A stretch of 64,000 bases of DNA, from positions 1 through 64,000 of the IMG/VR virus record IMGVR_UViG_3300042566_000510; one strand, 5' to 3'. This document shows positions 17,540 to 48,180 of this stretch, one piece after another; the first letter of the stretch is position 1; the number at the start of each line of letters is the position of its first letter. The notes beneath the pieces are model-generated. The model searched no databases, was not told where the DNA came from, and saw nothing but the letters and a program-made list of their open reading frames with translations. Origin of the DNA: a virus. Both the position numbers and the translations under genes were made by a program.

Positions 17540-19626
17540 TCCGCGAAACCCTTGTCCCATCCATCCCAGACATCCGCGACGACAACGTCAAGGATGTGCT
17601 GCGCGCCATCAAGAGCACGCTCGACGTGCGCGAGGGCAACATCGGTGACCCGCTTGACCAAGTTGTCACCATGCGAGAGCTCAGCGCTCTCAACCTGGTA
17701 GACAAGTCCAGCACCAGCACCACTTCGTACGGCGCGACCCTTCCTGTTGGCCCCGTCATTCCAGCGCCAACCGGCGGGTACAACCCGGCCACCGACTACA
17801 CGATTCCACCAGCTCCGACAAACCTGCGCGCAAGGGGTGGCTTCACCAACGTCTACCTCGAATGGGACGGGGCGCCAATCAAGAACCTCGCGTACACCGA
17901 GATCTGGCGCTCGGCAGCCGACAGCCTTGGCACGGCAGTCATGGTTGGAACCACGGCGGCCAACGTCTACGCCGACGCGGCCGCGCCAGATACGGAGTAC
18001 TTCTACTGGGTTCGCTTTGTATCTGAGGCCAACGTCACCGGCCCGTACAACGGCACCTCTGGCACACGCGCCCGTACGGCCATGGACGTCTCGGCGGCCA
18101 TCTCCGCGATTTCAGATGAGATCATAAACAGTCAGCTCTACGCCGATCTTGGTTCACGCATCTCGGCCACCGAGACCGGTATCAAGACCCTGACCGACAT
18201 CACTGCCACGAGCGCAAAGAGCGTCAGCACCCTAGCCAGCGTGGTCAACGGTCACTCGGCGGCCATTGAGGTGGCGCAGTCGTCGGTCGACGGCTTGCGT
18301 GCTCAGTACTCAGTCAAGATCGACAACAACGGGCACGTTTCAGGCTTCGGCTTGTCATCGACCATCACCAACGGCAAGCCCATGTCCGCGTTCATTGTGC
18401 GCGCAGACCGGTTCGCCATTGTGGGCGCAAACAGCACGACAGATCCGCTGGGCACACTTACACCAAGCAAGGTGCCTTTCATAGTACTGACAACACCGAC
18501 AGTCATTGGCGGCAAAACTTACCCTGCTGGCACCTGGATCGACACAGCATTCATTGCCAACGCCACGATTGCCAACGCGCAGATCTCCGACCTGACTGCC
18601 GACAAGATCACCACCGGCAGCTTGACGGCCTCAATTGGCATTACCACCGGTAAGATCACCGGCGGCGTCAATACAGCCTACGCTTTCGGCTCGAGCAACT
18701 TCGGCACGGGCTTCTACCTCGGCTCGGACAGCGGCGTCTACAAGTTTCGCGTTGGCTCGTACGCAAAGAACATGACGTGGGATGGGACTAACCTGTCTGT
18801 CACTGGTACTGTCTCAGCCACCGGAGCCACGTTCCAAGGCTTAACCATCACGGACGCCAGCGGTAACGTGCTGCTCTCGTCGGGCGGTGGAGTGAACGGT
18901 GCATACGTGTCTGGTCTCGGTGCGTTTGCTGGTCTTGATGAGATCACCTCTACAAACATCAGCACGTACATTGCCGACGGCGCAATCGGAAACGCCCACA
19001 TCGGTAACTTCATCTCGTCGACGAACTTCAACGGCGTCATCAATAGCAGCGGGCTCATCACCAGTAACGGCACCACAGGCTGGGCGATTGGTAAGGCTGG
19101 AAATGCCGTGTTCCAATCCATCTATGCTCGCGGAGATATCCAGGCCAGCAGCTTAAACGCAGCAACCGGAACCTTTAGTGGCACGCTCACCTCGTCTGCA
19201 ATTAACGCGGTGAACACAATCAACGTGGCCGGCAACGCAGTTACTGCCATGTACTACGCCGCAGGCGGTTCTGGAACATTGGCTGCGAACGAGCAACTCA
19301 AGCTTATTACCTCAGTAAGCATCAGCATGCCGACTGGATCGAGTGGCGTTGTGATCAATGCGTTCGTGAACATGAGCGGTTACTACTCTGGCACAACGGT
19401 CTACATTGAAATCAAGCGCAACGACGGGACTCAACTCAGAGGCGTTGGCGTTTCCTTGGTGTCTGGCTTCTATTCGTCATTTGCTATCACGGCATTTGAC
19501 CCGTACCCAACATCCACATACCCAACGTACGCCATGTATATCAGTAATCCGACCACCGGCCCTGGATCCAACTCTCCAGCGGACTACAGCGATCCATCCA
19601 TCCAAGCAACAGGCGGTAAGCGATGA
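17536..19626 (+). CDS. Tail fibre/spike protein with FN3-like and DUF1983 (TipJ-like) regions
   Basis: YTEIWRS..YYW-type FN3 segment; QYSVKIDNNGHVSGFGL..F.VRADRFAI; I.NA.I repeats. Confidence 0.75.
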   Translation: MIRETLVPSIPDIRDDNVKDVLRAIKSTLDVREGNIGDPLDQVVTMRELSALNLVDKSSTSTTSYGATLPVGPVIPAPTGGYNPATDYTIPPAPTNLRARGGFTNVYLEWDGAPIKNLAYTEIWRSAADSLGTAVMVGTTAANVYADAAAPDTEYFYWVRFVSEANVTGPYNGTSGTRARTAMDVSAAISAISDEIINSQLYADLGSRISATETGIKTLTDITATSAKSVSTLASVVNGHSAAIEVAQSSVDGLRAQYSVKIDNNGHVSGFGLSSTITNGKPMSAFIVRADRFAIVGANSTTDPLGTLTPSKVPFIVLTTPTVIGGKTYPAGTWIDTAFIANATIANAQISDLTADKITTGSLTASIGITTGKITGGVNTAYAFGSSNFGTGFYLGSDSGVYKFRVGSYAKNMTWDGTNLSVTGTVSATGATFQGLTITDASGNVLLSSGGGVNGAYVSGLGAFAGLDEITSTNISTYIADGAIGNAHIGNFISSTNFNGVINSSGLITSNGTTGWAIGKAGNAVFQSIYARGDIQASSLNAATGTFSGTLTSSAINAVNTINVAGNAVTAMYYAAGGSGTLAANEQLKLITSVSISMPTGSSGVVINAFVNMSGYYSGTTVYIEIKRNDGTQLRGVGVSLVSGFYSSFAITAFDPYPTSTYPTYAMYISNPTTGPGSNSPADYSDPSIQATGGKR

Positions 19627-31146: not shown

Positions 31147-34100
31147 ATGGCCCAATTCTCAAACTGCCTCCAGATCGTCAACAACATGCCTGAGCGCGAC
31201 CAGGAGGCTCTGCTGAGTCGACTGGATCAGCTCCAAGCTCAAGGCCTGTCAGCCAAGGAGGCGCAGCTTCAGGCGGCCATTGACGTGCTGGCGCAGGTTG
31301 AGCGCGAGGGTCAAGTTCGCAAAAGCGCAGACCGCACCTGGAGCGGGGACGGGTATCGAGCCCTGAACTACAACCCGCCAAAGAATGCAACGGTTGCCGA
31401 TGTAGTCCGATACGAAAGCGAAGAGCTTGGCAATGCAGACATTGGAGAGATGGCCGATGAGTCCGCCAATCAGCTCGGCATTGACCTTTCTGCGATCCCA
31501 GCGTCCGATGCGATCTGGGTGACGCACACCGTAGAGCAGGCAATGCAGTACGGCGAGCGCTCAGACATTGATAAATACCCCGTCAACGGCTGGCTGATCC
31601 TGGCCGACCTTGGCGACGAGGGCGCGCTACTCCTAAATCCCAAGCATGCTCAAGGCATCCTCAAGTCCGTCGACCGCCCTCAGTTCTACAGCCAGCTTCA
31701 GCGCTCAATTGAGCAAGTGCCCGAGCGCCTGGCAACCATGGCTGCGCCAGCATGGAAGCAGTGGCTCACGGCCAACGCCTCTAAGCTCGGCATCAAGGCC
31801 GACGAGCTCGAGTGGTCCGGCATCAAGGACTACCTGGACCTGCAGGGCAAGGCCAAGCTCAATAAGGCTGATCTCTCCTCCTACCTCGACGACAGTGGCG
31901 TCAAGATCTCCGAGGTACAGCTTGACGATGCTGATGCCAAGCGTTCGCGAGCAGACAAGGAGGCTGCAGCAAACAAACTTACGCGAGCCACCTTGGAGCT
32001 CCGCGAAGCTACGCCAAACATTCGTCAGCTGGATGGCGCCAACCTCACCGGATGGGCCGAAGATGCCTATGCCGGCGATGAATTTGCACAGCGGAAGATC
32101 CAAGCACTTAGCCTGGATGACAACGCCATGGCTGCAGTGCGTGAATATGGCCGCGTCGCAGCCGAATTTAACGAGGTTCATAACACTCGCAATTCACCGG
32201 CAACCAAGTACGGCCAGTACACCCTGCCAGGTGGTGAGAACTACCGCGAGGTGCTGATCACGCTGCCGGTAACGCCAAAAGATGGCGCCACCATTCAGCA
32301 GGCGTCATCTGGTTTCTGGCGTGTCACATTCAAAAATGGCGACACGGCAATGTTCAAGACGGAGTCGGAGGCTCGCGCAGCGGCTGGCGGAAGCGATGCG
32401 TACACATCAAGTCACTGGGACCAGAAGAACATCCTTGCCCACATCCGCGTCAACGACCGAGTCGCACAAGAGCCTGGCTTCATTGTGCGCAACACCCGCT
32501 CCGGCAACCGCAGCGAAGTGTTTGCAACCCGCGAGCAAGCTGAGGACTACCAAGCCAAGATGCCTGCGTCCTTGAAGACGGAAATCGTTGAGCAGCCTCG
32601 CGAAGTAAAAGTTCTCTTCGTGGAAGAAGTTCAATCGGACTGGGGCCAAGAAGGTAAGAAGAAAGGGTTCGCCGGCCAGAATGGCGCGCCTTTGTCTGAG
32701 CAGGAATACAAGCGCGCTGCCGAGCTGCAAAAGCGTGACCGCCTTGGCGGCGAGCCCTTGAGCGCCACTGAGCGCGCAGAGTTTGACGCGCTGATGGCCC
32801 GTCACACGCGAGCTCATGAGGGACTGATGGTTCCCAACGCCCCCTTCGTCACCAAGACCGAAGGCTGGCTCAACCTCGCGCTCAAGCGCATCGCCATGAT
32901 GGCCGTCGAGGGTGGCTACGACAAGGTGGCTTTCGTCAACGGCGAGCAGTCGGCTGACCGCTACAGCCTGGAAAAGCAAGTCGATGAGCTTTCCTACGAG
33001 CCAACAGCCAAGGGCTACTACATCAACGTGATGGCCAGCGGTCGCAACATCAAGAGTGGCGACTTCACGAAGAGCGAGCTCGAGGACATTGTCGGCAAAG
33101 AGATTGTCCAAAAGATGGACGCTCGCGAAGGCAAGGTCGAGGGCACGCCAGGGGCTCCGGACTACGAAGATTTGAAGGATATTCGCACTCTGAGTGGCGA
33201 CGGTCTCAAAGTCGGCGGTGAAGGCATGAAGACCTTCTACGACAAGCTCGTGCCACAGGCTCTCAACAAGCTGCTGCCTAAGCTGGGCGGTGAGAAGCTG
33301 GGCGCCGTCGAGATCGACGTGCAAGGAACCGGCCTGCAGACTCGGTACGAGTACCAAGGCCCAGAGCTCAAGCGATCCGAGATCGATGCAATTGCAAGGT
33401 CAGGCGATTTCTCTGTATCGATTGAGCGTCAGTTGCGCGAAATCGGTAGCTTTGTGGAAGTCGGAGTGCCCATGGCGGAGGCGGTGCAAAAGTATGGCTC
33501 CATCTCTGCGGCTGAAGCGCTCGGCGGCAAGCTGGTGCCAATGAAGAATGCGATGTCCGCGCAACCAGGCTTCGACGTCACAGACAAGATGCGCGAGACC
33601 GTGTCTGCCGGTGTGCCGCTTTTCAGCCGTGATCGCCAGACAGAGACGCCTGAGTTTAAGAAGTGGTTTGGCGACAGTAAGGTGGTGGATGCTGAGGGTA
33701 AGCCGCTGGTGGTTTATCACGGGACTGGCGGCGACTTCGATTCATTCGATGCCGCTCGCTCGGGCCAGAACTACGCTCGACGTGGCGGAGAAAAAGGCTT
33801 CTTCTTCACGAACAGGCCAATTCCCGCTGGCGTGTACGCCGAACAGGCGAGCGGAGCCTTCTTTGGTGACGAAGAGAACCCTCGCTTCGGCGACGGTACG
33901 GCCAACATCATGCCGGTGTACCTGTCGCTGCAGAATCCCTACGTCCGCAAAGCGACCGGCTCTCCTGACAAATGGTTCGATTCAAACCACAGCGCCTTGC
34001 TGGCTGCCGCCGAAAAAGCTGGCGCTGACGGCATCATTGTTAATGGCGGCAAAGGATTTGAGATCCGCAGCGTTTACATCGCATTCAGCCCCACCCAAAT

Positions 34101-36909
34101 TAAATCCGCCACAGGCAACAACGGCCAGTTCGACGCGACCAACCCAGACATCCGCAAGTCTGCCGACCGCCCTTGGTTCGACGACCTGAGTAAGCTTAAG
34201 GTCACAACCAACTACCAGCTCGGCGACTTGCTGAAGACCAGCAAGAAGCTGTCTTGGTGGGATCGCACCATCGGCACACAGTACAACCTGGCGCAGAAGC
34301 ACCCGCAGTTCAAGCGCGTGTTCGACGCTGTGCAGCGCTTCATCAACGACGTGTCGCTCTACGCCACCCGTGCTGCCGACCTGGCGCCAACCTGGCTGCC
34401 AAAACTGGATGGCATTTCGGACATCAACCCGTTCAGCAAGAATTTCAAGCGCCCAGTTTCCGCGGAGGACGTCAAGGCTTTGCGTGACCCCATCTTTGGC
34501 GGCACGCTCAAGTACACCCGCGACGAAAACGGAGAGCTGATCGAGTCGGATGATGTGTCCACTGCAGGCGTGGTGTTCACCAACGAAGAGCTGCGCACAA
34601 ACTTCGGCTTGAACGATCGCCAGATCGGCCTGTACCGCGAGTTCCGCAAGTCGGTCAACAAGAGCATTTCAGACTTGGCCGTATCGGATTCGCTGCGCTA
34701 CCTCGGTAAAGATGGCGAAGGCGTGCGCCAGCGAGCGCTTGACGCCGCCAATCTGGATGACGCACTAAATGCCATGGTTGCTCACCTTGATCAGTTGATC
34801 GCTCAGCAGCCGGAGCGCGCAGAGGTACTTGAAGATAGTAAGCGCGTCATCAAAGAGAAGGCGGGCCAGGCCATCGGCGCAATGTCACGCGGTTACGCAC
34901 CTTTGTCTCGCTTTGGTGAGTACACGGTCTACGCTACCGGCGAAGGGCTCGAGGAACCCATCTTCTTCATGTTCGAGAATGAGCGCGATGCAAACGTGCG
35001 TGCTCGCGAATTACAACGCGAATTCCCAGACGCCAACATTGAGCAAGGAACGATGAGCCAAGAGAGCTACAAGCTCTTTAGCGGCGTGACGCCAGAATCG
35101 CTTGCCCTGTTTGGCGAGGCTCTTGGGCTCGAGGAGTCCGGCGCCGACACCAAGTCGCAGGCATTCCAGATGATGCTGAAGATGGCCAAGGGAAACCGGT
35201 CCGCCATGAAGCGCATGATTGAGCGTAAGGGTATTGAGGGCTTCAGCGAAGATGCTGGTCGCGTGCTGGCTGGCTTCGTGTACAGCAATGCGCGTCAGAT
35301 CTCGACCAACCTGCATGCCGGAGAAATCGCACGCAGTGTCCAAGAAATCGATCAGCGAAATGGCGACGTTAAGGACCAAGCTGTCCGTTTGATGGAATAC
35401 GTGCAGAACCCACGCGAAGAGGCTCAAGCCTTACGCGGCCTGATGTTTACGCAGTTCATCGGTGGCTCTATCGCTTCGGCCATAGTCAACATGACTCAGC
35501 CGTTCACCATGACCCTGCCTTACCTGAGTCAGTTCGACGGCGCCACCGGTGCCGCCTCTCGCATGGCCGACGCAGTGAAGCTGGCCTCTCGCGGCATTCG
35601 CAATGACGACGACCTCAAGGCTGCACTCAAGCGCGGAGAGGATCTCGGGATTGTTAGTCCGCAGGAAGTGCATCAGCTCATGGCTCAGGCTCAAGGCAAG
35701 GGCAAGCTGCAAACCGGCGACGGCACCAAGATGGGCGACGCTGCGGCCAAGGTGAACAACGGCCTAGCCAAGCTTGGTCTGGCGTGGGGCAAGGTGTTCT
35801 CGGCTGCCGAACAGTTCAACCGTCGCGTGACCTTCATCGCTGCCTACAAGCTGGCTCGCGACCAAGGCATGGCCGATCCAATGGCTTTCGCTGAGAAGGC
35901 CATCGCTGAGACGCAAGGCGTGTACAACAAAGGCAACAAGCCAAACTGGGCTCGCGGCGCAGTGGGCGGCACCTTGTTCACGTTCAAGCAGTATTCAATC
36001 GGCTACCTCGAGTTCTTGCGCCGCATGTGGGGTAACGGACCAGAGGGCAAGAAGGCCGTCGGCCTCGCGCTTGGCGTGTTGTTCCTCATGTCTGGCTTGG
36101 GCGGCATGCCTGGCTCCGACGATCTGGATGACGTCATCGACGGCTTCATGCAGCGCGTGCTCGGCCGTAGCTTTGACAGCAAGCAAGCGAAGAAAGAGTT
36201 CTTCGCCAGCATCCTGGGTCAATCCGGCGCTGAGTTTGTGATGAGCGGACTGTCTGGCTTGCCAGGCATGCCAATCGACTTCTCCGGTCGCACGGGTCTA
36301 GGCAACATAGCTCCAGGCACTGGCATCTTCACCAAGAAGCGCGACTACGCCCAGGACTACAAAGAGGTGCTTGGCCCTGTCGGCACGCTGGCAACAAATG
36401 CAGGATCTTTCCTGGCAAACTTTGCGGCCGGCGAGTTCGGCAAGGCTGCGGAATCGGTTGCGCCGGTTGCTGCGCAGAACGTCATCAAGGCAATCGACAT
36501 GGCGCAGATGGGCTTCTATCGCGATGCTAAGGGCCGCAAGGTCATTGACACAACGCTGAGCGAAGCCATCCTCAAGGGTGCAGGCTTCCAGCCACGTTCG
36601 GTCAGTCAGATCCAGCAAGCCACCGGCGAGCAGCAGGGTCTCATCGCGCAGAACCGTTTGGCATGGCAGGAGATCCGTGATCTCGCTGTTGCCGGTCGCG
36701 TCGAGAAGGATGAGGCCAAGCTTGCAGAGGCGCGCCGTCGCTTTGGCCAGTGGAATCGCAACAACCCTGACAGCCCAATCCGCTGGAATCAAGAGTCCAT
36801 CAACAGCGGCGTCAAAGAAGCCAACAAGCCAAAGGCTGAGCGCATCGCTGATGCTGCGCCCAAGCAGATCCGCGGCACAGTCAAGCGAGAACTTGAGAAG
36901 GCCGACTGA
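31147..36909 (+). CDS. Large polyvalent protein 2: EExQSDW domain, ART-PolyVal-like domain, PLxRFG domain, C-terminal helical (LPD38-like) region
   Basis: 1920 aa; LFVEEVQSDWGQ; PLVVYHGT..GFFFT..PVYL..NP..DGII..F.PTQIKS; YAPLSRFGEY. Confidence 0.85.
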   Translation: MAQFSNCLQIVNNMPERDQEALLSRLDQLQAQGLSAKEAQLQAAIDVLAQVEREGQVRKSADRTWSGDGYRALNYNPPKNATVADVVRYESEELGNADIGEMADESANQLGIDLSAIPASDAIWVTHTVEQAMQYGERSDIDKYPVNGWLILADLGDEGALLLNPKHAQGILKSVDRPQFYSQLQRSIEQVPERLATMAAPAWKQWLTANASKLGIKADELEWSGIKDYLDLQGKAKLNKADLSSYLDDSGVKISEVQLDDADAKRSRADKEAAANKLTRATLELREATPNIRQLDGANLTGWAEDAYAGDEFAQRKIQALSLDDNAMAAVREYGRVAAEFNEVHNTRNSPATKYGQYTLPGGENYREVLITLPVTPKDGATIQQASSGFWRVTFKNGDTAMFKTESEARAAAGGSDAYTSSHWDQKNILAHIRVNDRVAQEPGFIVRNTRSGNRSEVFATREQAEDYQAKMPASLKTEIVEQPREVKVLFVEEVQSDWGQEGKKKGFAGQNGAPLSEQEYKRAAELQKRDRLGGEPLSATERAEFDALMARHTRAHEGLMVPNAPFVTKTEGWLNLALKRIAMMAVEGGYDKVAFVNGEQSADRYSLEKQVDELSYEPTAKGYYINVMASGRNIKSGDFTKSELEDIVGKEIVQKMDAREGKVEGTPGAPDYEDLKDIRTLSGDGLKVGGEGMKTFYDKLVPQALNKLLPKLGGEKLGAVEIDVQGTGLQTRYEYQGPELKRSEIDAIARSGDFSVSIERQLREIGSFVEVGVPMAEAVQKYGSISAAEALGGKLVPMKNAMSAQPGFDVTDKMRETVSAGVPLFSRDRQTETPEFKKWFGDSKVVDAEGKPLVVYHGTGGDFDSFDAARSGQNYARRGGEKGFFFTNRPIPAGVYAEQASGAFFGDEENPRFGDGTANIMPVYLSLQNPYVRKATGSPDKWFDSNHSALLAAAEKAGADGIIVNGGKGFEIRSVYIAFSPTQIKSATGNNGQFDATNPDIRKSADRPWFDDLSKLKVTTNYQLGDLLKTSKKLSWWDRTIGTQYNLAQKHPQFKRVFDAVQRFINDVSLYATRAADLAPTWLPKLDGISDINPFSKNFKRPVSAEDVKALRDPIFGGTLKYTRDENGELIESDDVSTAGVVFTNEELRTNFGLNDRQIGLYREFRKSVNKSISDLAVSDSLRYLGKDGEGVRQRALDAANLDDALNAMVAHLDQLIAQQPERAEVLEDSKRVIKEKAGQAIGAMSRGYAPLSRFGEYTVYATGEGLEEPIFFMFENERDANVRARELQREFPDANIEQGTMSQESYKLFSGVTPESLALFGEALGLEESGADTKSQAFQMMLKMAKGNRSAMKRMIERKGIEGFSEDAGRVLAGFVYSNARQISTNLHAGEIARSVQEIDQRNGDVKDQAVRLMEYVQNPREEAQALRGLMFTQFIGGSIASAIVNMTQPFTMTLPYLSQFDGATGAASRMADAVKLASRGIRNDDDLKAALKRGEDLGIVSPQEVHQLMAQAQGKGKLQTGDGTKMGDAAAKVNNGLAKLGLAWGKVFSAAEQFNRRVTFIAAYKLARDQGMADPMAFAEKAIAETQGVYNKGNKPNWARGAVGGTLFTFKQYSIGYLEFLRRMWGNGPEGKKAVGLALGVLFLMSGLGGMPGSDDLDDVIDGFMQRVLGRSFDSKQAKKEFFASILGQSGAEFVMSGLSGLPGMPIDFSGRTGLGNIAPGTGIFTKKRDYAQDYKEVLGPVGTLATNAGSFLANFAAGEFGKAAESVAPVAAQNVIKAIDMAQMGFYRDAKGRKVIDTTLSEAILKGAGFQPRSVSQIQQATGEQQGLIAQNRLAWQEIRDLAVAGRVEKDEAKLAEARRRFGQWNRNNPDSPIRWNQESINSGVKEANKPKAERIADAAPKQIRGTVKRELEKAD

Positions 36910-36940
36910 CCGACTCTCCTCTGCGTCGCATTGCCACAGG

Positions 36941-36967
36941 CCCACCCTTCGGGGTGGGTCTTTTTTC
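36941..36967 (+). terminator. Intrinsic terminator ending the virion operon
   Basis: CCCACCC-TTCG-GGGTGGG followed by TCTTTTTT. Confidence 0.85.
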
Positions 36968-37040
36968 ATTGGCGTGGCGAAAAAACAACGGTTCCGCAAA
37001 TCACCTCCGCACGCCGGTTCGGTTCTCATTAGCATCGGTG

Positions 37041-37157
37041 ATGCATATTCTTTCCGGCATTGCCATTCTTATCGGCCTACTCGCCATCGCGGCCACTCAC
37101 ACTCTTGCGGCGATCATTGTGTTCGGCCTGCTGTACCTACTCTGGCGGTCGTGCTAA
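37041..37157 (+). CDS. 38-aa hydrophobic membrane peptide
   Basis: MHILSGIAILIGLLAIAATHTLAAIIVFGLLYLLWRSC; no clear RBS. Confidence 0.4.
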   Translation: MHILSGIAILIGLLAIAATHTLAAIIVFGLLYLLWRSC

Positions 37158-37170
37158 GCTATTGGACTGT

Positions 37171-37242
37171 GGTGCGGTGGCCGAATGGTAAGGCACCAGT
37201 CTGCAAAACTGCGTCTCGTGGGTTCGATTCCCTCCCGCACCT
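37171..37242 (+). tRNA. tRNA-Cys (GCA), CCA not encoded
   Basis: Acceptor GGTGCGG/CCGCACC, D arm GCC-GAATGGTAA-GGC, anticodon loop CTGCAAA, T loop TTCGATT, discriminator U; one mismatch each in the anticodon and T stems. Confidence 0.88.
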
Positions 37243-37246
37243 ATCC

Positions 37247-37777
37247 TCACACCGTGCATCCCTCGTGCAGCTCGCGCTTGGCCTTGATGTATGCCAGGTG
37301 CGCAAGCTCGGGCGTGTCATGCATGCCAAGGAAGCGCCGCTTCCCCTTCACAAAAATCCTCGCCATGTAGCGACCGGATGGGTCTGGCGTCACGCCCATC
37401 AGTCCTGAAGTGTTGTTGCGATATGCTGAGCGTTTATTCTCCGAGTTCACGCGCGGCGTTACGTCTCGCAAGTTCGACATTCGATTGTCGGTCTTCACCC
37501 CATTGATGTGGTCAATCTGCCCGGCCGGAAATTCTCCGTACACGTACAGCCATGCAACGCGATGAGCGGTCAGTTGATGTCCCCTCGCCCAGATCTTAAG
37601 GTAGCCGGCACTAGCCTTTTTCTCCGCCCTGGCTCCCGCCTTGTGCGGCCGCTCTCCCCACCCATCGGTGCGCCAGCGAAACTCGCCGGTCTCTGGGTCG
37701 TAGATGAGGATTGACCGAACCCACTCTGCTGTGACGGGCGGTTTTGTGAGGTGAGTGTGTAAGTTCTTGGTTTTCAT
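37247..37777 (-). CDS. HNH homing endonuclease with AP2-like C-terminus
   Basis: YDPETGEF; AHRVAW; IDHING..DNR..NLR; NTSG..GV..Y.ARI..LG. Confidence 0.9.
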   Translation of the reverse strand: MKTKNLHTHLTKPPVTAEWVRSILIYDPETGEFRWRTDGWGERPHKAGARAEKKASAGYLKIWARGHQLTAHRVAWLYVYGEFPAGQIDHINGVKTDNRMSNLRDVTPRVNSENKRSAYRNNTSGLMGVTPDPSGRYMARIFVKGKRRFLGMHDTPELAHLAYIKAKRELHEGCTV

Positions 37778-37785
37778 AGCGTAGT

Positions 37786-37990
37786 ACGGCCTGCAAAGCC
37801 GTTGAAGTTTTCAGCCAGTATAACTCAATCCCTGCAAATTCAAAGACTTATTTACGCGAGTCCGACCTCGCACGCCTCGCTCAGCCCTCATTCCGGCTTA
37901 AAAACCACACGTTTTTGTGGTTGAACCACACGTAAACTTCCTTTCTTTCCGCTGACGGCGTAAGCTAAACCACACCTCACCACAACCACA
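37786..37990. other. Putative attP region
   Basis: Isolated tRNA-Cys anticodon arm ACGGC-CTGCAAA-GCCGT (37786-37802) and repeated AACCACA(C) boxes directly upstream of the integrase. Confidence 0.6.
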
Positions 37991-38000
37991 GAGGGTGGCC

Positions 38001-39140
38001 ATGGGCGTCCGTCAGACCCCGAGCGGGAAGTTCGAGCTGCGCATCACGCACCGTCTGTTGCCGAAGGCGGTGTACCTCACCTTCAACAACGAAGACGCTG
38101 CCAACGCGTACGGCGCGCAAGCACGCGAGCTCCTCGACTCTGGTGTTGTGCCGGCCGGACTGGTCGATGAGAAGAAGGTGCCAACGCAAACGCTGCACTC
38201 AGTGATCCGCGCATGGCAGGCGCACGGTCAACTCTCCACGGCTGATGACGAGATCCTCGACGTGCTGACGGGAGAGATCGGCAAGACCAAGCTGTCCGAG
38301 TTCACGTACGCCTGGTGCGAGCAATGGGTGCGCGATATGAAGCTCAAGGCCAACCTGGCGCCCGGCACCATCCGTAAGCGCATCGGCGCCCTCGCCCGCT
38401 GCGTTGACTGGGAACTCAGGAAGACGCCGGACCTGCTGGTCGGCAACCCCTTGCGCTCACTTCCGCGCGGATCAGCCACCTACAGCGCCAAGGATGCAGC
38501 GGAAGCGAAGAAGCTGGGCAAGAAGGTGCGGCAGGACGCAGTGCGTGATCGGCGCCTGCACAGTGGCGAGCATGAGCGAATCATGAAAGCGCTGGCCGGC
38601 GAAAAGCGAGAGGACCGTCAGCGGCCGCTCGAGCCCGATGAAGACCTGCGCGACCTGTACCTACTGATCTTGCATACAGGTATTCGACTGCGCGAGGCGT
38701 ACACCATTAAGCGTGAACAGGCCGGCGAACGCGTGCTGCGCATCAGCAGCTCGAAACAGTGGCACGGGCGGGAAGCCTGGCGCGATGTGCCCATGGTCAA
38801 AGAGATCCGTCAGATGATGGCCCGTCGTGCCGCTAAATCAAAGCCAGGAGCGCTTGTTTTCCCTTGGTGGGACGGAGACCCCCAAGAGCTCGACAAGGTC
38901 ACCACGCGGCTCTCTCGTCGCTTTGGCTTGCTGTTCAACTACGCAGGTTGCGTAGACTTGACTGAGCACGACTTGCGTCACGAGGCGACGTGCCGTTGGT
39001 TTGAGATGCGCGACAAGAGGGGTGGCTGGCTTTTCCGCGAAGCTGAGATCGAGAAGATCATGGGCTGGGCGCCGGACAGCTCAATGGCCAAGCGCTACGC
39101 ATCATTCCGAGCTGAAGACCTAGCCGAGCGTCTTGACTGA
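38001..39140 (+). CDS. int: Tyrosine integrase
   Basis: Catalytic set TGIRLRE, HDLRH, MGW, KRYA; LAPGTI core-binding motif. Confidence 0.92.
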   Translation: MGVRQTPSGKFELRITHRLLPKAVYLTFNNEDAANAYGAQARELLDSGVVPAGLVDEKKVPTQTLHSVIRAWQAHGQLSTADDEILDVLTGEIGKTKLSEFTYAWCEQWVRDMKLKANLAPGTIRKRIGALARCVDWELRKTPDLLVGNPLRSLPRGSATYSAKDAAEAKKLGKKVRQDAVRDRRLHSGEHERIMKALAGEKREDRQRPLEPDEDLRDLYLLILHTGIRLREAYTIKREQAGERVLRISSSKQWHGREAWRDVPMVKEIRQMMARRAAKSKPGALVFPWWDGDPQELDKVTTRLSRRFGLLFNYAGCVDLTEHDLRHEATCRWFEMRDKRGGWLFREAEIEKIMGWAPDSSMAKRYASFRAEDLAERLD

Positions 39141-39368
39141 CGGGAGGGCTGGAGGTGTGCGCCGCTTGCTCATGATCCGCTTGGGCTCGCGTCGGTCACG
39201 CGCCTCCTCGAGCGCCTTCTGATTCAGGCGATCACGCAGCGCATCGGCCGGAATGATCCAACTCCGGCCAAATTTCACACCCGGCAGGTCGCCATTGTTC
39301 AGGCGCTCTGCCACGATCTCTTCCGTGCAGCCGAGCATCTCGGCCACCTGGGTGACGTTGTAGATCAT
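39120..39368 (-). CDS. xis: Excisionase (HTH_17-like)
   Basis: VTQVAEMLG..GDLPGVKFGRSWII; convergent with and overlapping int. Confidence 0.8.
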   Translation of the reverse strand: MIYNVTQVAEMLGCTEEIVAERLNNGDLPGVKFGRSWIIPADALRDRLNQKALEEARDRREPKRIMSKRRTPPALPSVKTLG

Positions 39369-40018
39369 ATCCATTCGCTGCCAGTCCACCGCTCATCAAA
39401 TTTGTTTCTTTTGCGGCAGTTGAATACCGCCGGAATGACTGAAAGGTTGCTCCAAATGTGAAGGCCGCACACCTCTTTTCCTGCAAGCGGAGCAATGTGG
39501 TCGACATCCCACTGAAATCCGAACATCAGAGATCTGGCCTTAGCAAGGCGAGATGCCTCCGCTTCCACAAGCCGAGTGAACTCATCGCGCCATGGCTTTG
39601 CCGCGGAACGCCGTTGCGCCCTATCTCTTCTTCTTGCGGCGGCAATAATGTCTCCATTTGACCGTTTGTACTCGCGATTTCTTTGTCGCGCAAAATCCCG
39701 GTTTTTGTAGTACCACTTGAGTGCGTTCTCTTGCCTCCTTGCGAGTCTTTCTTCCTTTGGTGCAGGTATCCGCGGCTGACGTGGGTTGATTGGTTTTCCA
39801 GCGGCCACCAATACTGCCTCGTATCTCAATCTGCGGCGCGCCGACTCCTCTGCTTTTTGCCCCTGCGTGGCCGACTGCCTAGCAACTGCATCGCAGCTTT
39901 TGCAGCGGCGGCTTTGGCGGCCATGTCCTTTTGACGCAAATTGGAAAAGAGGTTTCTGCTTGTGACACACTGAGCAGGCTTTTGTGTCGCATCCGTCGAT
40001 ATTGGATTCAAAATTCAT
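39365..40018 (-). CDS. HNH endonuclease with N-terminal zinc finger
   Basis: CSVC..CKSC; WDVDHIAPL..VCGLHIWSNL..N..K.N. Confidence 0.85.
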   Translation of the reverse strand: MNFESNIDGCDTKACSVCHKQKPLFQFASKGHGRQSRRCKSCDAVARQSATQGQKAEESARRRLRYEAVLVAAGKPINPRQPRIPAPKEERLARRQENALKWYYKNRDFARQRNREYKRSNGDIIAAARRRDRAQRRSAAKPWRDEFTRLVEAEASRLAKARSLMFGFQWDVDHIAPLAGKEVCGLHIWSNLSVIPAVFNCRKRNKFDERWTGSEWI

Positions 40019-47214: not shown

Positions 47215-48180
47215 TTAGTCCTTGTACGAAAGTGAAATTGATTTGAATGACCAATTTGAATTAATACTGCGCACCACCACACCTTCGCCCTGCTTGCCGT
47301 TCTCATACACGACGGCATCGGCAAGCATGCGCAGCTGATCGGCGTCGACGTACCCATGGCCAGACGCAGAGATCTCGGCCATAGGAATGCCCAGCGAATC
47401 GCAGAAGTGAACCAGCGCACCGAAGTGGCAGCGCTCGCGGCGATTGATGTCATACAGCGTGAAGGCGCGAATCTCGAGGTCGTCGTAGCCGCATGGGTTG
47501 CCTTGGATACCCGGGCCGCAAACCTCAAACTGAAGGGCAAATCCCGACGTCATCAGGTCTAGGTCGAACTTGCGAGCGGCCTGCCAGTACACGTTGCTTG
47601 CGCCGCTGTCTGAGAACTCCTTGAGCTCAAGGTTGCGGCTGCACACATGCAGCTCACCCTCGTCGTCGACCCATGCCGTGCAGCTCGTGCCGTCGTACTT
47701 GACGGTGGCGACCCAATCCCAGCCGAGCATGAGCTCGCGCAGGTCGCGAACGCGCTGGAAGTTGGGCTCGTCAGTCTTGGGGATGAAGCTGGGGAAGTTG
47801 CCGCGGACCTCTCCGGCAATCTGTGCTGACACAGGCTTCTCGTACTTGGTGACACCTAGCACGTCGCCGACTTCAAAGCCCGGCTCCAGGTTGGCCTCAA
47901 TGCCAACAGCAGGAATGATCAAGCACTCGCTCGGCACGCCCTTGAAACGGGCCATGCGCACGCGCCACTTGCTCTTCTCCATGAATGCCCAGCGCGGATT
48001 ATCCGTGGGCAGTAGAGCGTCCTGCAGGAAGACGACAACCGCATCGCCTTCGTTGATCTCCTTGCTGACAACGCCGGACCATGAGCCCTCGTCGCCACAG
48101 TCGACCTGCGCCTGCTGAATACGGTCTGCACCGTCGATTGGTTTGATGGCCGATACGCGGCCTGCTACTGCGAGTTTCAT
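47215..48180 (-). CDS. ATP-dependent RNA ligase (DRB0094/Rnl5-like)
   Basis: N-terminal OB-like segment (I.GADRI), FPSFIPKTDE, motif I KYDGTS, CSRN, QFEVCGPGIQGN, EGVV, FKSI. Confidence 0.88.
   Translation of the reverse strand: MKLAVAGRVSAIKPIDGADRIQQAQVDCGDEGSWSGVVSKEINEGDAVVVFLQDALLPTDNPRWAFMEKSKWRVRMARFKGVPSECLIIPAVGIEANLEPGFEVGDVLGVTKYEKPVSAQIAGEVRGNFPSFIPKTDEPNFQRVRDLRELMLGWDWVATVKYDGTSCTAWVDDEGELHVCSRNLELKEFSDSGASNVYWQAARKFDLDLMTSGFALQFEVCGPGIQGNPCGYDDLEIRAFTLYDINRRERCHFGALVHFCDSLGIPMAEISASGHGYVDADQLRMLADAVVYENGKQGEGVVVRSINSNWSFKSISLSYKD

What the first reader, a model, noticed from the sequence alone, without database searches (positions are those of the whole stretch)
37171..37880. 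attP holds only the tRNA-Cys anticodon arm; a complete divergent tRNA-Cys nearby may replace the disrupted host gene
ACGGC-CTGCAAA-GCCGT (37786-37802) is a Cys anticodon stem-loop with a different stem from the phage tRNA (CCAGT/ACTGC), about 200 nt before the integrase. Integrases often cross over in the 7-nt anticodon loop, and attP normally supplies the rest of the tRNA. Here no intact half follows, only a displaced T-arm-like hairpin (GCGAG-TCCGAC-CTCGC, 37856-37871). Inference: integration destroys the often single-copy host tRNA-Cys, and the phage copy, whose altered stem should not be a recombination target, complements it. This would make the host dependent on the prophage unless excision is precise.
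Basis: partly seen in the sequence, partly recalled or inferred. Interest (0 to 1): 0.7.

Follow-up and report, generated by a model that had tools for sequence, protein, structure and literature searches.

The report
Phage breaks host tRNA-Cys, carries spare
This freshwater temperate phage very probably inserts into the anticodon loop of its host's cysteine-tRNA gene without rebuilding it and brings its own tRNA-Cys as a replacement, a trick ("tRNA-dependent lysogeny") published in 2024 for mycobacterial phages, so this is a clear new example rather than a new principle.

Summary
The window is a complete 77.5-kb phage genome. Its only tRNA gene is tRNA-Cys(GCA) at 37171-37242. The 17-mer at 37786-37802 lies 215 nt before the tyrosine integrase.

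Comparison supports the reading:
- 46 distinct free-phage relatives of this integrase carry the Cys anticodon loop plus a full tRNA 3' half to CCA at that position. None has a separate tRNA-Cys in the flanks held.
- About 33 integrated relatives sit beside a rebuilt host tRNA-Cys.
- Only three loci (window, L002, L077) keep just the anticodon arm, and all three carry a complete tRNA-Cys just upstream.
- The exact 17-mer is the anticodon arm of apparently single-copy tRNA-Cys genes in 5 of 401 sampled bacterial genomes.

This matches tRNA-dependent lysogeny (Guerrero-Bustamante & Hatfull 2024, PMC10865867), also reported by sequence analysis in Sinorhizobium. This scan has noted the same kind many times on other DNA.

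New here are the Cys isotype, a probably proteobacterial freshwater host, and an HNH homing endonuclease gene between the tRNA and the core. That block is shared (78% nt) with a phage whose integrase is only 55% identical.

No lysogen was found, so complementation is inferred. The "T-arm-like hairpin" is not supported.

The parts
36938..36961 (+). Terminator-like hairpin with T run, ending the late (structural/ejection protein) operon
36954..37157 (+). Small 67-aa ORF with no family match. It is conserved in L003 and marks the left edge of the variable attP block.
37152..37160 (+). Candidate extended -10 (TGcTAAGCT) 10 nt before the tRNA. L077 has TGcTAACCT at the same place. This is an inference only.
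   Evidence: read; the consensus scan found no sigma-70-type promoter
37171..37242 (+). Complete phage tRNA-Cys(GCA) with discriminator U73. No CCA is encoded, and two pairs are non-canonical (27:43 C.C and 50:64 U.U). It is the only tRNA gene in the 77.5-kb genome.
37247..37777 (-). HNH_3 + AP2 free-standing homing endonuclease (176 aa). Its first ~12 codons overlap the P-arm side of attP.
   Evidence: 79% aa identity to the L077 copy, N-terminus included
37760..37776 (+). Left arm of an inverted repeat (TAAGTTCTTGGTTTTCA) that flanks the core region in the relatives I inspected (L155, L003, PCA1). A protein-binding role is an inference.
37786..37802 (+). attP common core: the tRNA-Cys anticodon arm ACGGC-CTGCAAA-GCCGT. 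The predicted crossover is in the 7-nt loop.
37803..37835 (+). 33-nt spacer where relatives carry the variable loop, T arm, acceptor strand and CCA. Its length is conserved but nothing tRNA-like remains. The minus strand reads TTTGAA-N17-TATACT, a possible HNH promoter (inference).
37836..37850 (+). Right arm of the inverted repeat (AAATTCAAAGACTTA), matching the left arm at 11 of 15 positions
37856..37871 (+). Hairpin GCGAG-TCCGAC-CTCGC. L077 has GCGAG-TTTG-CTCGC. It is not T-arm-like; in canonical relatives a terminator hairpin follows the tRNA 3' half at about this position.
37903..37991 (.). P' arm: a cluster of AACCACA/TGTGGTT repeats (5 of the window's 18 ACCACA copies lie within 90 bp), conserved in L002-L004. 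These are candidate arm-type integrase sites.
38001..39140 (+). Tyrosine integrase, with the catalytic R231, K254, H325, R328, W358 and Y368 invariant among 14 homologues (numbering from the GTG at 37995)
39120..39389 (-). Excisionase-like HTH protein (89 aa)

Best explanation
This is a tRNA-dependent lysogeny module. The tyrosine integrase recombines the 17-bp attP core (37786-37802) with the identical anticodon arm of the host tRNA-Cys(GCA) gene. The attP sequence after the core has no T arm, acceptor strand or CCA. So attL becomes a dead hybrid (host 5' half plus phage spacer), and the host 3' half is stranded at attR. The phage's own complete tRNA-Cys ends up at the attR end of the prophage, about 550 nt inside it. 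It shares the loop but has different stems, so it should not be an integrase target, and it supplies tRNA-Cys to the lysogen. Shown here: the anatomy, the family's target, the lack of a 3' half, and the strict co-occurrence with a cognate tRNA. Inferred: the actual attB of this phage, expression and charging of the phage tRNA, and its necessity for lysogen survival. The HNH homing endonuclease between tRNA and core is most likely a selfish passenger that now travels with the block.
For: The genome is a complete virus record with terminal repeats, so the site is attP and not a prophage end. Integrase, excisionase and a CI-like repressor are all present.

Family survey:
- About 33 distinct integrated loci have a complete tRNA-Cys next to int, usually after 1-4 tRNA-Gly genes.
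- 46 distinct free attP loci have the loop plus a full 3' half to CCA at -170 to -270 from int, and none has another tRNA-Cys in the flanks held.
- The three loci that lack the 3' half (window, L002, L077) all have a complete tRNA-Cys upstream.

L002 still shows a T-loop remnant (TTCGATT) at the right offset, which looks like decay after the tRNA was acquired. The sister pair L076/L077 is 96-98% identical in the flanks but differs in mode. The core is invariant or nearly so in five phages.

The exact 17-mer is the anticodon arm of complete tRNA-Cys genes in 5 of 401 sampled genomes, once per genome, with 0 hits to the reversed control. A generic tRNA-Cys pattern also hits each of those genomes only once.

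tRNA-Cys is the only tRNA in the phage, and Cys makes up only 0.60% of 15,756 residues in the long ORFs. The three phage tRNAs have different but paired acceptor stems, U73 and GCA. The mechanism has been demonstrated experimentally in mycobacteriophages with cores of 8-17 bp (PMC10865867).
Against: - No lysogen or attL/attR junction of a short-core phage was found.
- The host is unknown, so single-copy status rests on five look-alike genomes and one sequence pattern.
- The window's tRNA has two non-canonical stem pairs, encodes no CCA, and scores lower than the L077 and L002 copies (59 against 63-66 bits). It could be impaired.
- The consensus scan found no promoter before the tRNA.
- The three supporting loci represent at most two independent events, because the window and L077 share the block.
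Confidence: 0.75

Rival explanations
1. The phage tRNA-Cys mainly serves lytic growth, either as a translation supplement or as a decoy/replacement against host anticodon nucleases. Its position next to a shortened attP would then be incidental or secondary.
For: Phage tRNAs are commonly explained this way, and the 2024 paper raises the anti-defence idea itself. The phage also encodes an RNA ligase (47215-48180), an enzyme type used in tRNA repair.
Against: It is the only tRNA in 77.5 kb and is of exactly the attB isotype. Cys is rare in the phage proteins at 0.60%. None of the 46 canonical-attP relatives carries it in the flanks held, while all 3 short-core loci do, directly beside the core. 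The two roles are not mutually exclusive.
Confidence: 0.08
2. The lysogeny module is decaying. The attP has lost its tRNA half, the tRNA is accumulating mismatches, and the phage no longer forms viable lysogens. It would behave as a lytic phage in practice, like Gordonia phage Daredevil, which fails to rebuild the tRNA, lacks a cognate tRNA and forms clear plaques.
For: The window's tRNA has two non-canonical pairs and no CCA. An HNH gene intrudes into the P-arm side. No lysogen was found in the collections searched.
Against: The integrase is intact with all catalytic residues, and the excisionase and repressor are present. The 17-mer, both inverted-repeat arms, the 33-nt spacing and the P' repeats are all conserved. 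The tRNA still scores 30 bits above the Rfam cut-off. L077 carries the same block with a flawless tRNA that includes CCA.
Confidence: 0.1
3. Integration happens, but the host does not depend on the phage tRNA. Either the host has further tRNA-Cys copies, or the crossover lies elsewhere (for example within the phage's complete tRNA gene) so that a working gene is rebuilt.
For: The host is unknown. The phage tRNA loop CTGCAAA is identical to the core loop.
Against: The phage tRNA stems differ between window, L077 and L002, while the 17-mer stays constant. The core sits at the family's conserved distance from int, next to the P' repeats. The candidate host-type genomes show one tRNA-Cys each.
Confidence: 0.07

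Closest known systems
tRNA-dependent lysogeny of actinobacteriophages (Fionnbharth K4, LeBron and Cluster L, Cain K6, Gaia X, Gordonia OneUp/BrutonGaster/Mollymur; Guerrero-Bustamante & Hatfull, mBio 2024, PMC10865867)
   Same: A tyrosine integrase with arm-type repeats. The attP core is only an anticodon-arm-sized match to a host tRNA (8-17 bp in the paper, 17 bp here, the same as LeBron). The tRNA is not rebuilt at attL, and a cognate tRNA is encoded by the phage. Close sister phages use the canonical tRNA-restoring mode (Cain/Ximenita and Gaia/Omega there; L077/L076 and window/L003 here).
   Different: The isotype is Cys, which is not among the Lys, Ile2 and Leu cases in the paper. The host is probably proteobacterial and from fresh water, not Actinobacteria. 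The tRNA lies directly beside the core. An HNH homing endonuclease gene lies between them. Nothing has been tested experimentally here.
Canonical tRNA-restoring attP of the same integrase family, e.g. Curvibacter phage PCA1 (OP588919.1), and K. P. Williams's 2002 classification of tRNA integration sites by sublocation (recalled from memory; the paper was seen only as a citation)
   Same: An integrase 47% identical. The core lies about 200 nt before int, the same flanking inverted repeat is present, and the target is the tRNA-Cys anticodon arm.
   Different: PCA1 and the 46 other distinct loci carry the full 3' half to CCA followed by a terminator hairpin. The window does not.
Lo5R7ANS-like prophages of Sinorhizobium meliloti (PMC11476347, PMC12429752) and Lactobacillus johnsonii prophage Lj965 (cited in PMC10865867)
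   Same: Sequence-based reports that a prophage splits a tRNA gene and carries a same-isotype tRNA outside the Actinobacteria.
   Different: Different phage types, hosts and isotypes. Those cases were seen as integrated prophages, whereas this one is seen only as free attP.
Free-standing homing endonucleases in phage tRNA regions (T4 SegB, T5 tRNA-region HNH nickases; recalled from my own knowledge, not checked here)
   Same: A selfish endonuclease gene sits next to tRNA sequence and is present or absent among close relatives.
   Different: The target site is unknown. Only 2 of 80 loci with homologues of this HNH lie near any tRNA-like sequence.

Membership tests
tRNA-dependent lysogeny | Phage-encoded tyrosine integrase adjacent to attP | tested here: met
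   PF00589 and phrog_1 match. Catalytic R, K, HxxR, W and Y are invariant in 14 homologues. A P' repeat cluster lies between core and int.
tRNA-dependent lysogeny | attP core matches a host tRNA gene (attB overlaps a tRNA) | tested here: met
   The 17-mer equals the anticodon arm of complete bacterial tRNA-Cys genes. About 33 distinct integrated relatives lie at tRNA-Cys.
tRNA-dependent lysogeny | This phage actually integrates at that attB | tested here: inconclusive
tRNA-dependent lysogeny | Short common core, so no functional tRNA is rebuilt at attL or attR | tested here: met
   Identity to tRNA-Cys ends at 37802. The next 33 nt have no T arm, acceptor strand or CCA, and Rfam finds no second tRNA-like match.
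tRNA-dependent lysogeny | [quoted passage not shown] | tested here: met
   tRNA-Cys(GCA) at 37171-37242 scores 59.1 bits and is the only tRNA in the genome.
tRNA-dependent lysogeny | Disrupted host tRNA is essential and not redundant | tested here: inconclusive
   Five bacterial genomes carrying the exact 17-mer each give one hit to a generic tRNA-Cys pattern. The true host is unknown.
tRNA-dependent lysogeny | Phage tRNA is required for survival of lysogens (clear plaques when deleted) | not testable with these tools
   Needs the phage, its host and genetics.
Canonical tRNA-restoring attP | attP carries the tRNA segment from the crossover to the 3' end | tested here: not met
   Absent in window, L002 and L077. 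Present in 46 distinct related attP loci.
HNH free-standing homing endonuclease | HNH nuclease domain with a DNA-binding module | tested here: met
   PF13392 at 57.3 bits (cut-off 24.8), plus AP2 at 26 bits, below its 33.3-bit cut-off. phrog_99 matches at 6e-58.
HNH free-standing homing endonuclease | Presence/absence polymorphism among close relatives, and mobility | tested here: inconclusive
   Present in window and L077; absent from their sisters L003/L002 and L076. Ordinary mosaic recombination explains this equally well.

The most novel reading that the evidence does not exclude
The block tRNA-Cys + HNH + short core may be a mobile 'lysogeny-mode conversion' cassette. In this reading the homing endonuclease cuts the tRNA-like 3' half in the canonical attP of related co-infecting phages. 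Repair from the cassette donor would then convert them to tRNA-dependent lysogeny. Because the apparent HNH promoter (TTTGAA-N17-TATACT on the minus strand, 37845-37817) lies on the far side of the crossover, integration would disconnect the endonuclease gene from it. The enzyme would then be made only from the free phage genome.
Probability: 0.1. Interest if true: 0.7.

Novelty: new member of a known kind. Interest (0 to 1): 0.35.

Why it matters
The authors of the 2024 paper asked how common tRNA-dependent lysogeny is outside actinobacteriophages. This locus helps with that question in three ways:
- It adds a well-controlled environmental example in a large freshwater phage of a probably proteobacterial host, with a new isotype (Cys).
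- It comes with natural sister genomes that use the canonical mode. One integrase family here gives 46 canonical, about 33 integrated and 3 short-core loci.
- L002 (a decaying 3' half) and window/L077 (the half replaced, HNH inserted) look like successive stages of the transition.

In practice, such phages can only be used for integration vectors if the tRNA is kept. A prophage of this type cannot be lost by imprecise deletion without killing the cell.

Tried and rejected
- The single genome-contig scan gave only a decayed integrase remnant beside tRNA-Cys in a Gammaproteobacteria MAG.
- Sequencing runs: the stretch is held by lake, freshwater and one marine metagenome. Laying their contigs gave no joints or junctions at the core. 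This is no evidence either way.
- A search for a lysogen via the phage-type tRNA in 401 genomes found none. Searches in the family of G394 and the order of G076 covered only 4 genomes and 1 genome.
- The host could not be named, because handles reached through loci carry no taxonomy. Burkholderiales is suggested only by the named integrase homologues and by Curvibacter phage PCA1.
- L198/L295 first looked like a fourth tRNA + HNH + int case. Its 'tRNA' is in fact a canonical attP 3' half, with the HNH inserted on the int side, so I rejected it as a short-core example.
- Single-sequence folding of the tRNA and the attP was uninformative.
- fold_alignment of the three phage tRNAs misaligned L002 by one base, so I relied on the Rfam alignments instead.
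- The HNH family is not generally associated with tRNAs (2 of 80 loci).
- The consensus promoter scan found nothing. The promoters I name are hand readings.

Full report
**What is in the sequence**

The window is the first 64 kb of a 77,491-bp IMG/VR virus record with direct terminal repeats, estimated 100% complete. The site is therefore a phage attP, not a prophage end. Features from left to right:
- The late operon ends with a 1920-aa protein and a terminator-like hairpin at 36938-36961.
- A small 67-aa ORF follows at 36954-37157.
- tRNA-Cys(GCA) lies at 37171-37242.
- A minus-strand ORF at 37247-37777 is an HNH_3 + AP2 homing endonuclease (Pfam 57 bits; phrog_99 6e-58).
- The 17-mer ACGGC-CTGCAAA-GCCGT lies at 37786-37802.
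- A 33-nt spacer follows, then the hairpin at 37856-37871.
- A cluster of AACCACA repeats lies at 37903-37991. It holds 5 of the window's 18 ACCACA copies within 90 bp.
- The tyrosine integrase runs from the likely ATG at 38001 to 39140.
- An excisionase-like gene lies at 39120-39389 on the minus strand, and a CI-like repressor candidate at 55248-55730.

**What the relatives show**

Integrase homologues were collected from IMG/VR and JGI metagenomes and classified by script.
- 41 loci (about 33 distinct once L002 is removed) are integrated. A complete tRNA-Cys, usually preceded by one to four tRNA-Gly genes, ends about 160-310 nt (mostly about 180) before int.
- 54 loci (46 distinct) are free attP sites. 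They carry the Cys anticodon loop, the 3' stem and the whole 3' half through CCA at -170 to -270 from int. Phage DNA lies upstream, and there is no other tRNA-Cys in the 0.3-4 kb held upstream (at least 1 kb in all but two loci).
- In many of these attPs the 5' anticodon stem is not conserved, so tRNA identity begins at the loop. This places the crossover there.
- The closest cultured relative is Curvibacter phage PCA1 (integrase 47% identical). It has this canonical layout, and the 'tRNA-Cys' annotated in its record is really the attP half-gene.

**The exceptions**

Only three loci lack the 3' half: the window, L002 (integrase 88% identical) and L077 (55%). All three carry a complete tRNA-Cys just upstream, starting at -824, -336 and -817 from int.
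- A naive Fisher test of 3 of 3 against 0 of 46 gives about 5e-5. However, the window and L077 share the block, so there are at most two independent events.
- L003 and L004 (integrases 87% and 82% identical) have the identical 17-mer followed by a full 3' half. They have no tRNA-Cys in the fragments held, which are 25% and 52% of their genomes.
- The distance from the core to the next conserved motif is 33 nt in window, L002 and L003 alike. L002 still shows TTCGATT at the T-loop offset. The window shows nothing tRNA-like there.

**The core is a real tRNA-Cys anticodon arm**

The exact 17-mer occurs in 5 of 401 genomes sampled from the class of the one related bacterial hit. It occurs once per genome, with no hits to the reversed control. 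Every hit is the anticodon arm of a complete tRNA-Cys(GCA), next to tRNA-Gly where flank is held and, in three of the five, followed by tRNA-Leu. Two of these genes (L313, L314) have 3' halves nearly identical to the L003 attP half. A generic tRNA-Cys pattern hits each of the five genomes exactly once, which is consistent with a single-copy gene.

**The phage tRNA**

- It is the only tRNA gene in the whole genome. Cys is only 0.60% of residues in the long ORFs, so a codon-supply role is unlikely.
- The three phage tRNAs have GCA and U73. These are the main CysRS identity elements (established knowledge, not tested here).
- Their acceptor and T stems differ in sequence but remain paired.
- Their anticodon stems (CCAGT/ACTGC, GCAGT/ACTGC, CAGGT/ACCTG) differ from the core's ACGGC/GCCGT. 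The loop is the same.
- The window's copy is the weakest: 59 bits, two non-canonical pairs and no encoded CCA. The L077 copy is flawless and encodes CCA.

**The block and the HNH gene**

- Window 37151-37879 matches L077 3152-3879 at 77.6% nt, and the HNH proteins are 79% identical. The two integrases are only 55% identical.
- L077 and its sister L076 are 96-98% identical in the flanks but differ across this region. L076 has the canonical half-gene.
- Against L003, homology to the window breaks at about 37174 and resumes at about 37873.
- The central attP region, tRNA and HNH therefore travel as a unit, while the P' repeats stay with each integrase.
- Ordinary phage mosaicism explains this pattern. 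Homing is possible but not shown.
- The HNH start codon lies 9 nt from the core, and its first codons overlap the left inverted-repeat arm.

**Comparison with what is known**

The arrangement fits tRNA-dependent lysogeny as defined and demonstrated experimentally by Guerrero-Bustamante & Hatfull (mBio 2024, PMC10865867). That system has these features:
- A tyrosine integrase.
- An attB within a tRNA gene.
- An 8-17 bp common core.
- No rebuilt tRNA after integration.
- A cognate phage tRNA that is needed for lysogen survival.
- Sister phages that use the canonical mode.

Sequence-based reports exist for Sinorhizobium prophages and Lactobacillus Lj965. This scan has noted the same kind on other DNA many times.

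**Verdict**

This is a new member of a known kind. What is new is the isotype, the habitat and probable host group, and the HNH insertion. Still unproven are the actual attB of this phage, expression and charging of the tRNA, and its necessity for lysogens. Confidence in the reading is about 0.75.

Noticed in passing
window 37817-37845, minus strand: TTTGAA-N17-TATACT (or TTGAAT-N15-TATACT) sits inside the 33-nt spacer and right repeat arm. It is conserved in L077 and aimed at the HNH gene. If it is the HNH promoter, crossover in the core would separate the gene from it in the prophage.
   Followed up: partly
L198 / L295 (IMGVR_UViG_3300023242_000001, 76 kb): A more distant phage (integrase 44% identical) has a canonical tRNA-Cys attP half, then an HNH gene (47% identical to the window's), then int. 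This would be a second, independent HNH insertion beside a tRNA-Cys-type attP.
   Followed up: partly
L311 1248-1319 = OP588919.1 23382-23453: The 'tRNA-Cys' annotated in Curvibacter phage PCA1 is the attP half-gene (anticodon arm plus 3' half). What stands in for the 5' half is a non-tRNA sequence.
   Followed up: yes
window 47215-48180, minus strand: An RNA ligase gene (phrog_968, 2e-42) lies among the early genes, near a dNMP kinase and a MazG-like pyrophosphatase. It may be part of a tRNA-repair counter-defence.
   Followed up: no
window 31147-36909: The 1920-aa protein just upstream carries an ART-PolyVal ADP-ribosyltransferase domain (PF18760, 4e-25).
   Followed up: no
L005 9665-10615 (CAVQCA010000033.1): A Gammaproteobacteria MAG has a truncated integrase homologue (248-aa frame, matching residues 20-231) directly after an intact tRNA-Cys, with AAAACCGCC/AAAACCACC repeats between them. 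This looks like a decayed island of the same family.
   Followed up: partly
L149, about 204 nt before int: A canonical attP half-gene has one base missing from the 3' anticodon stem (TGCAAA-CCGT). This may be a sequencing error or early decay.
   Followed up: no
G055 (record of L002) 18726-18798, minus strand: The L002 phage carries a second tRNA gene (53 bits), of undetermined isotype, far from attP.
   Followed up: no
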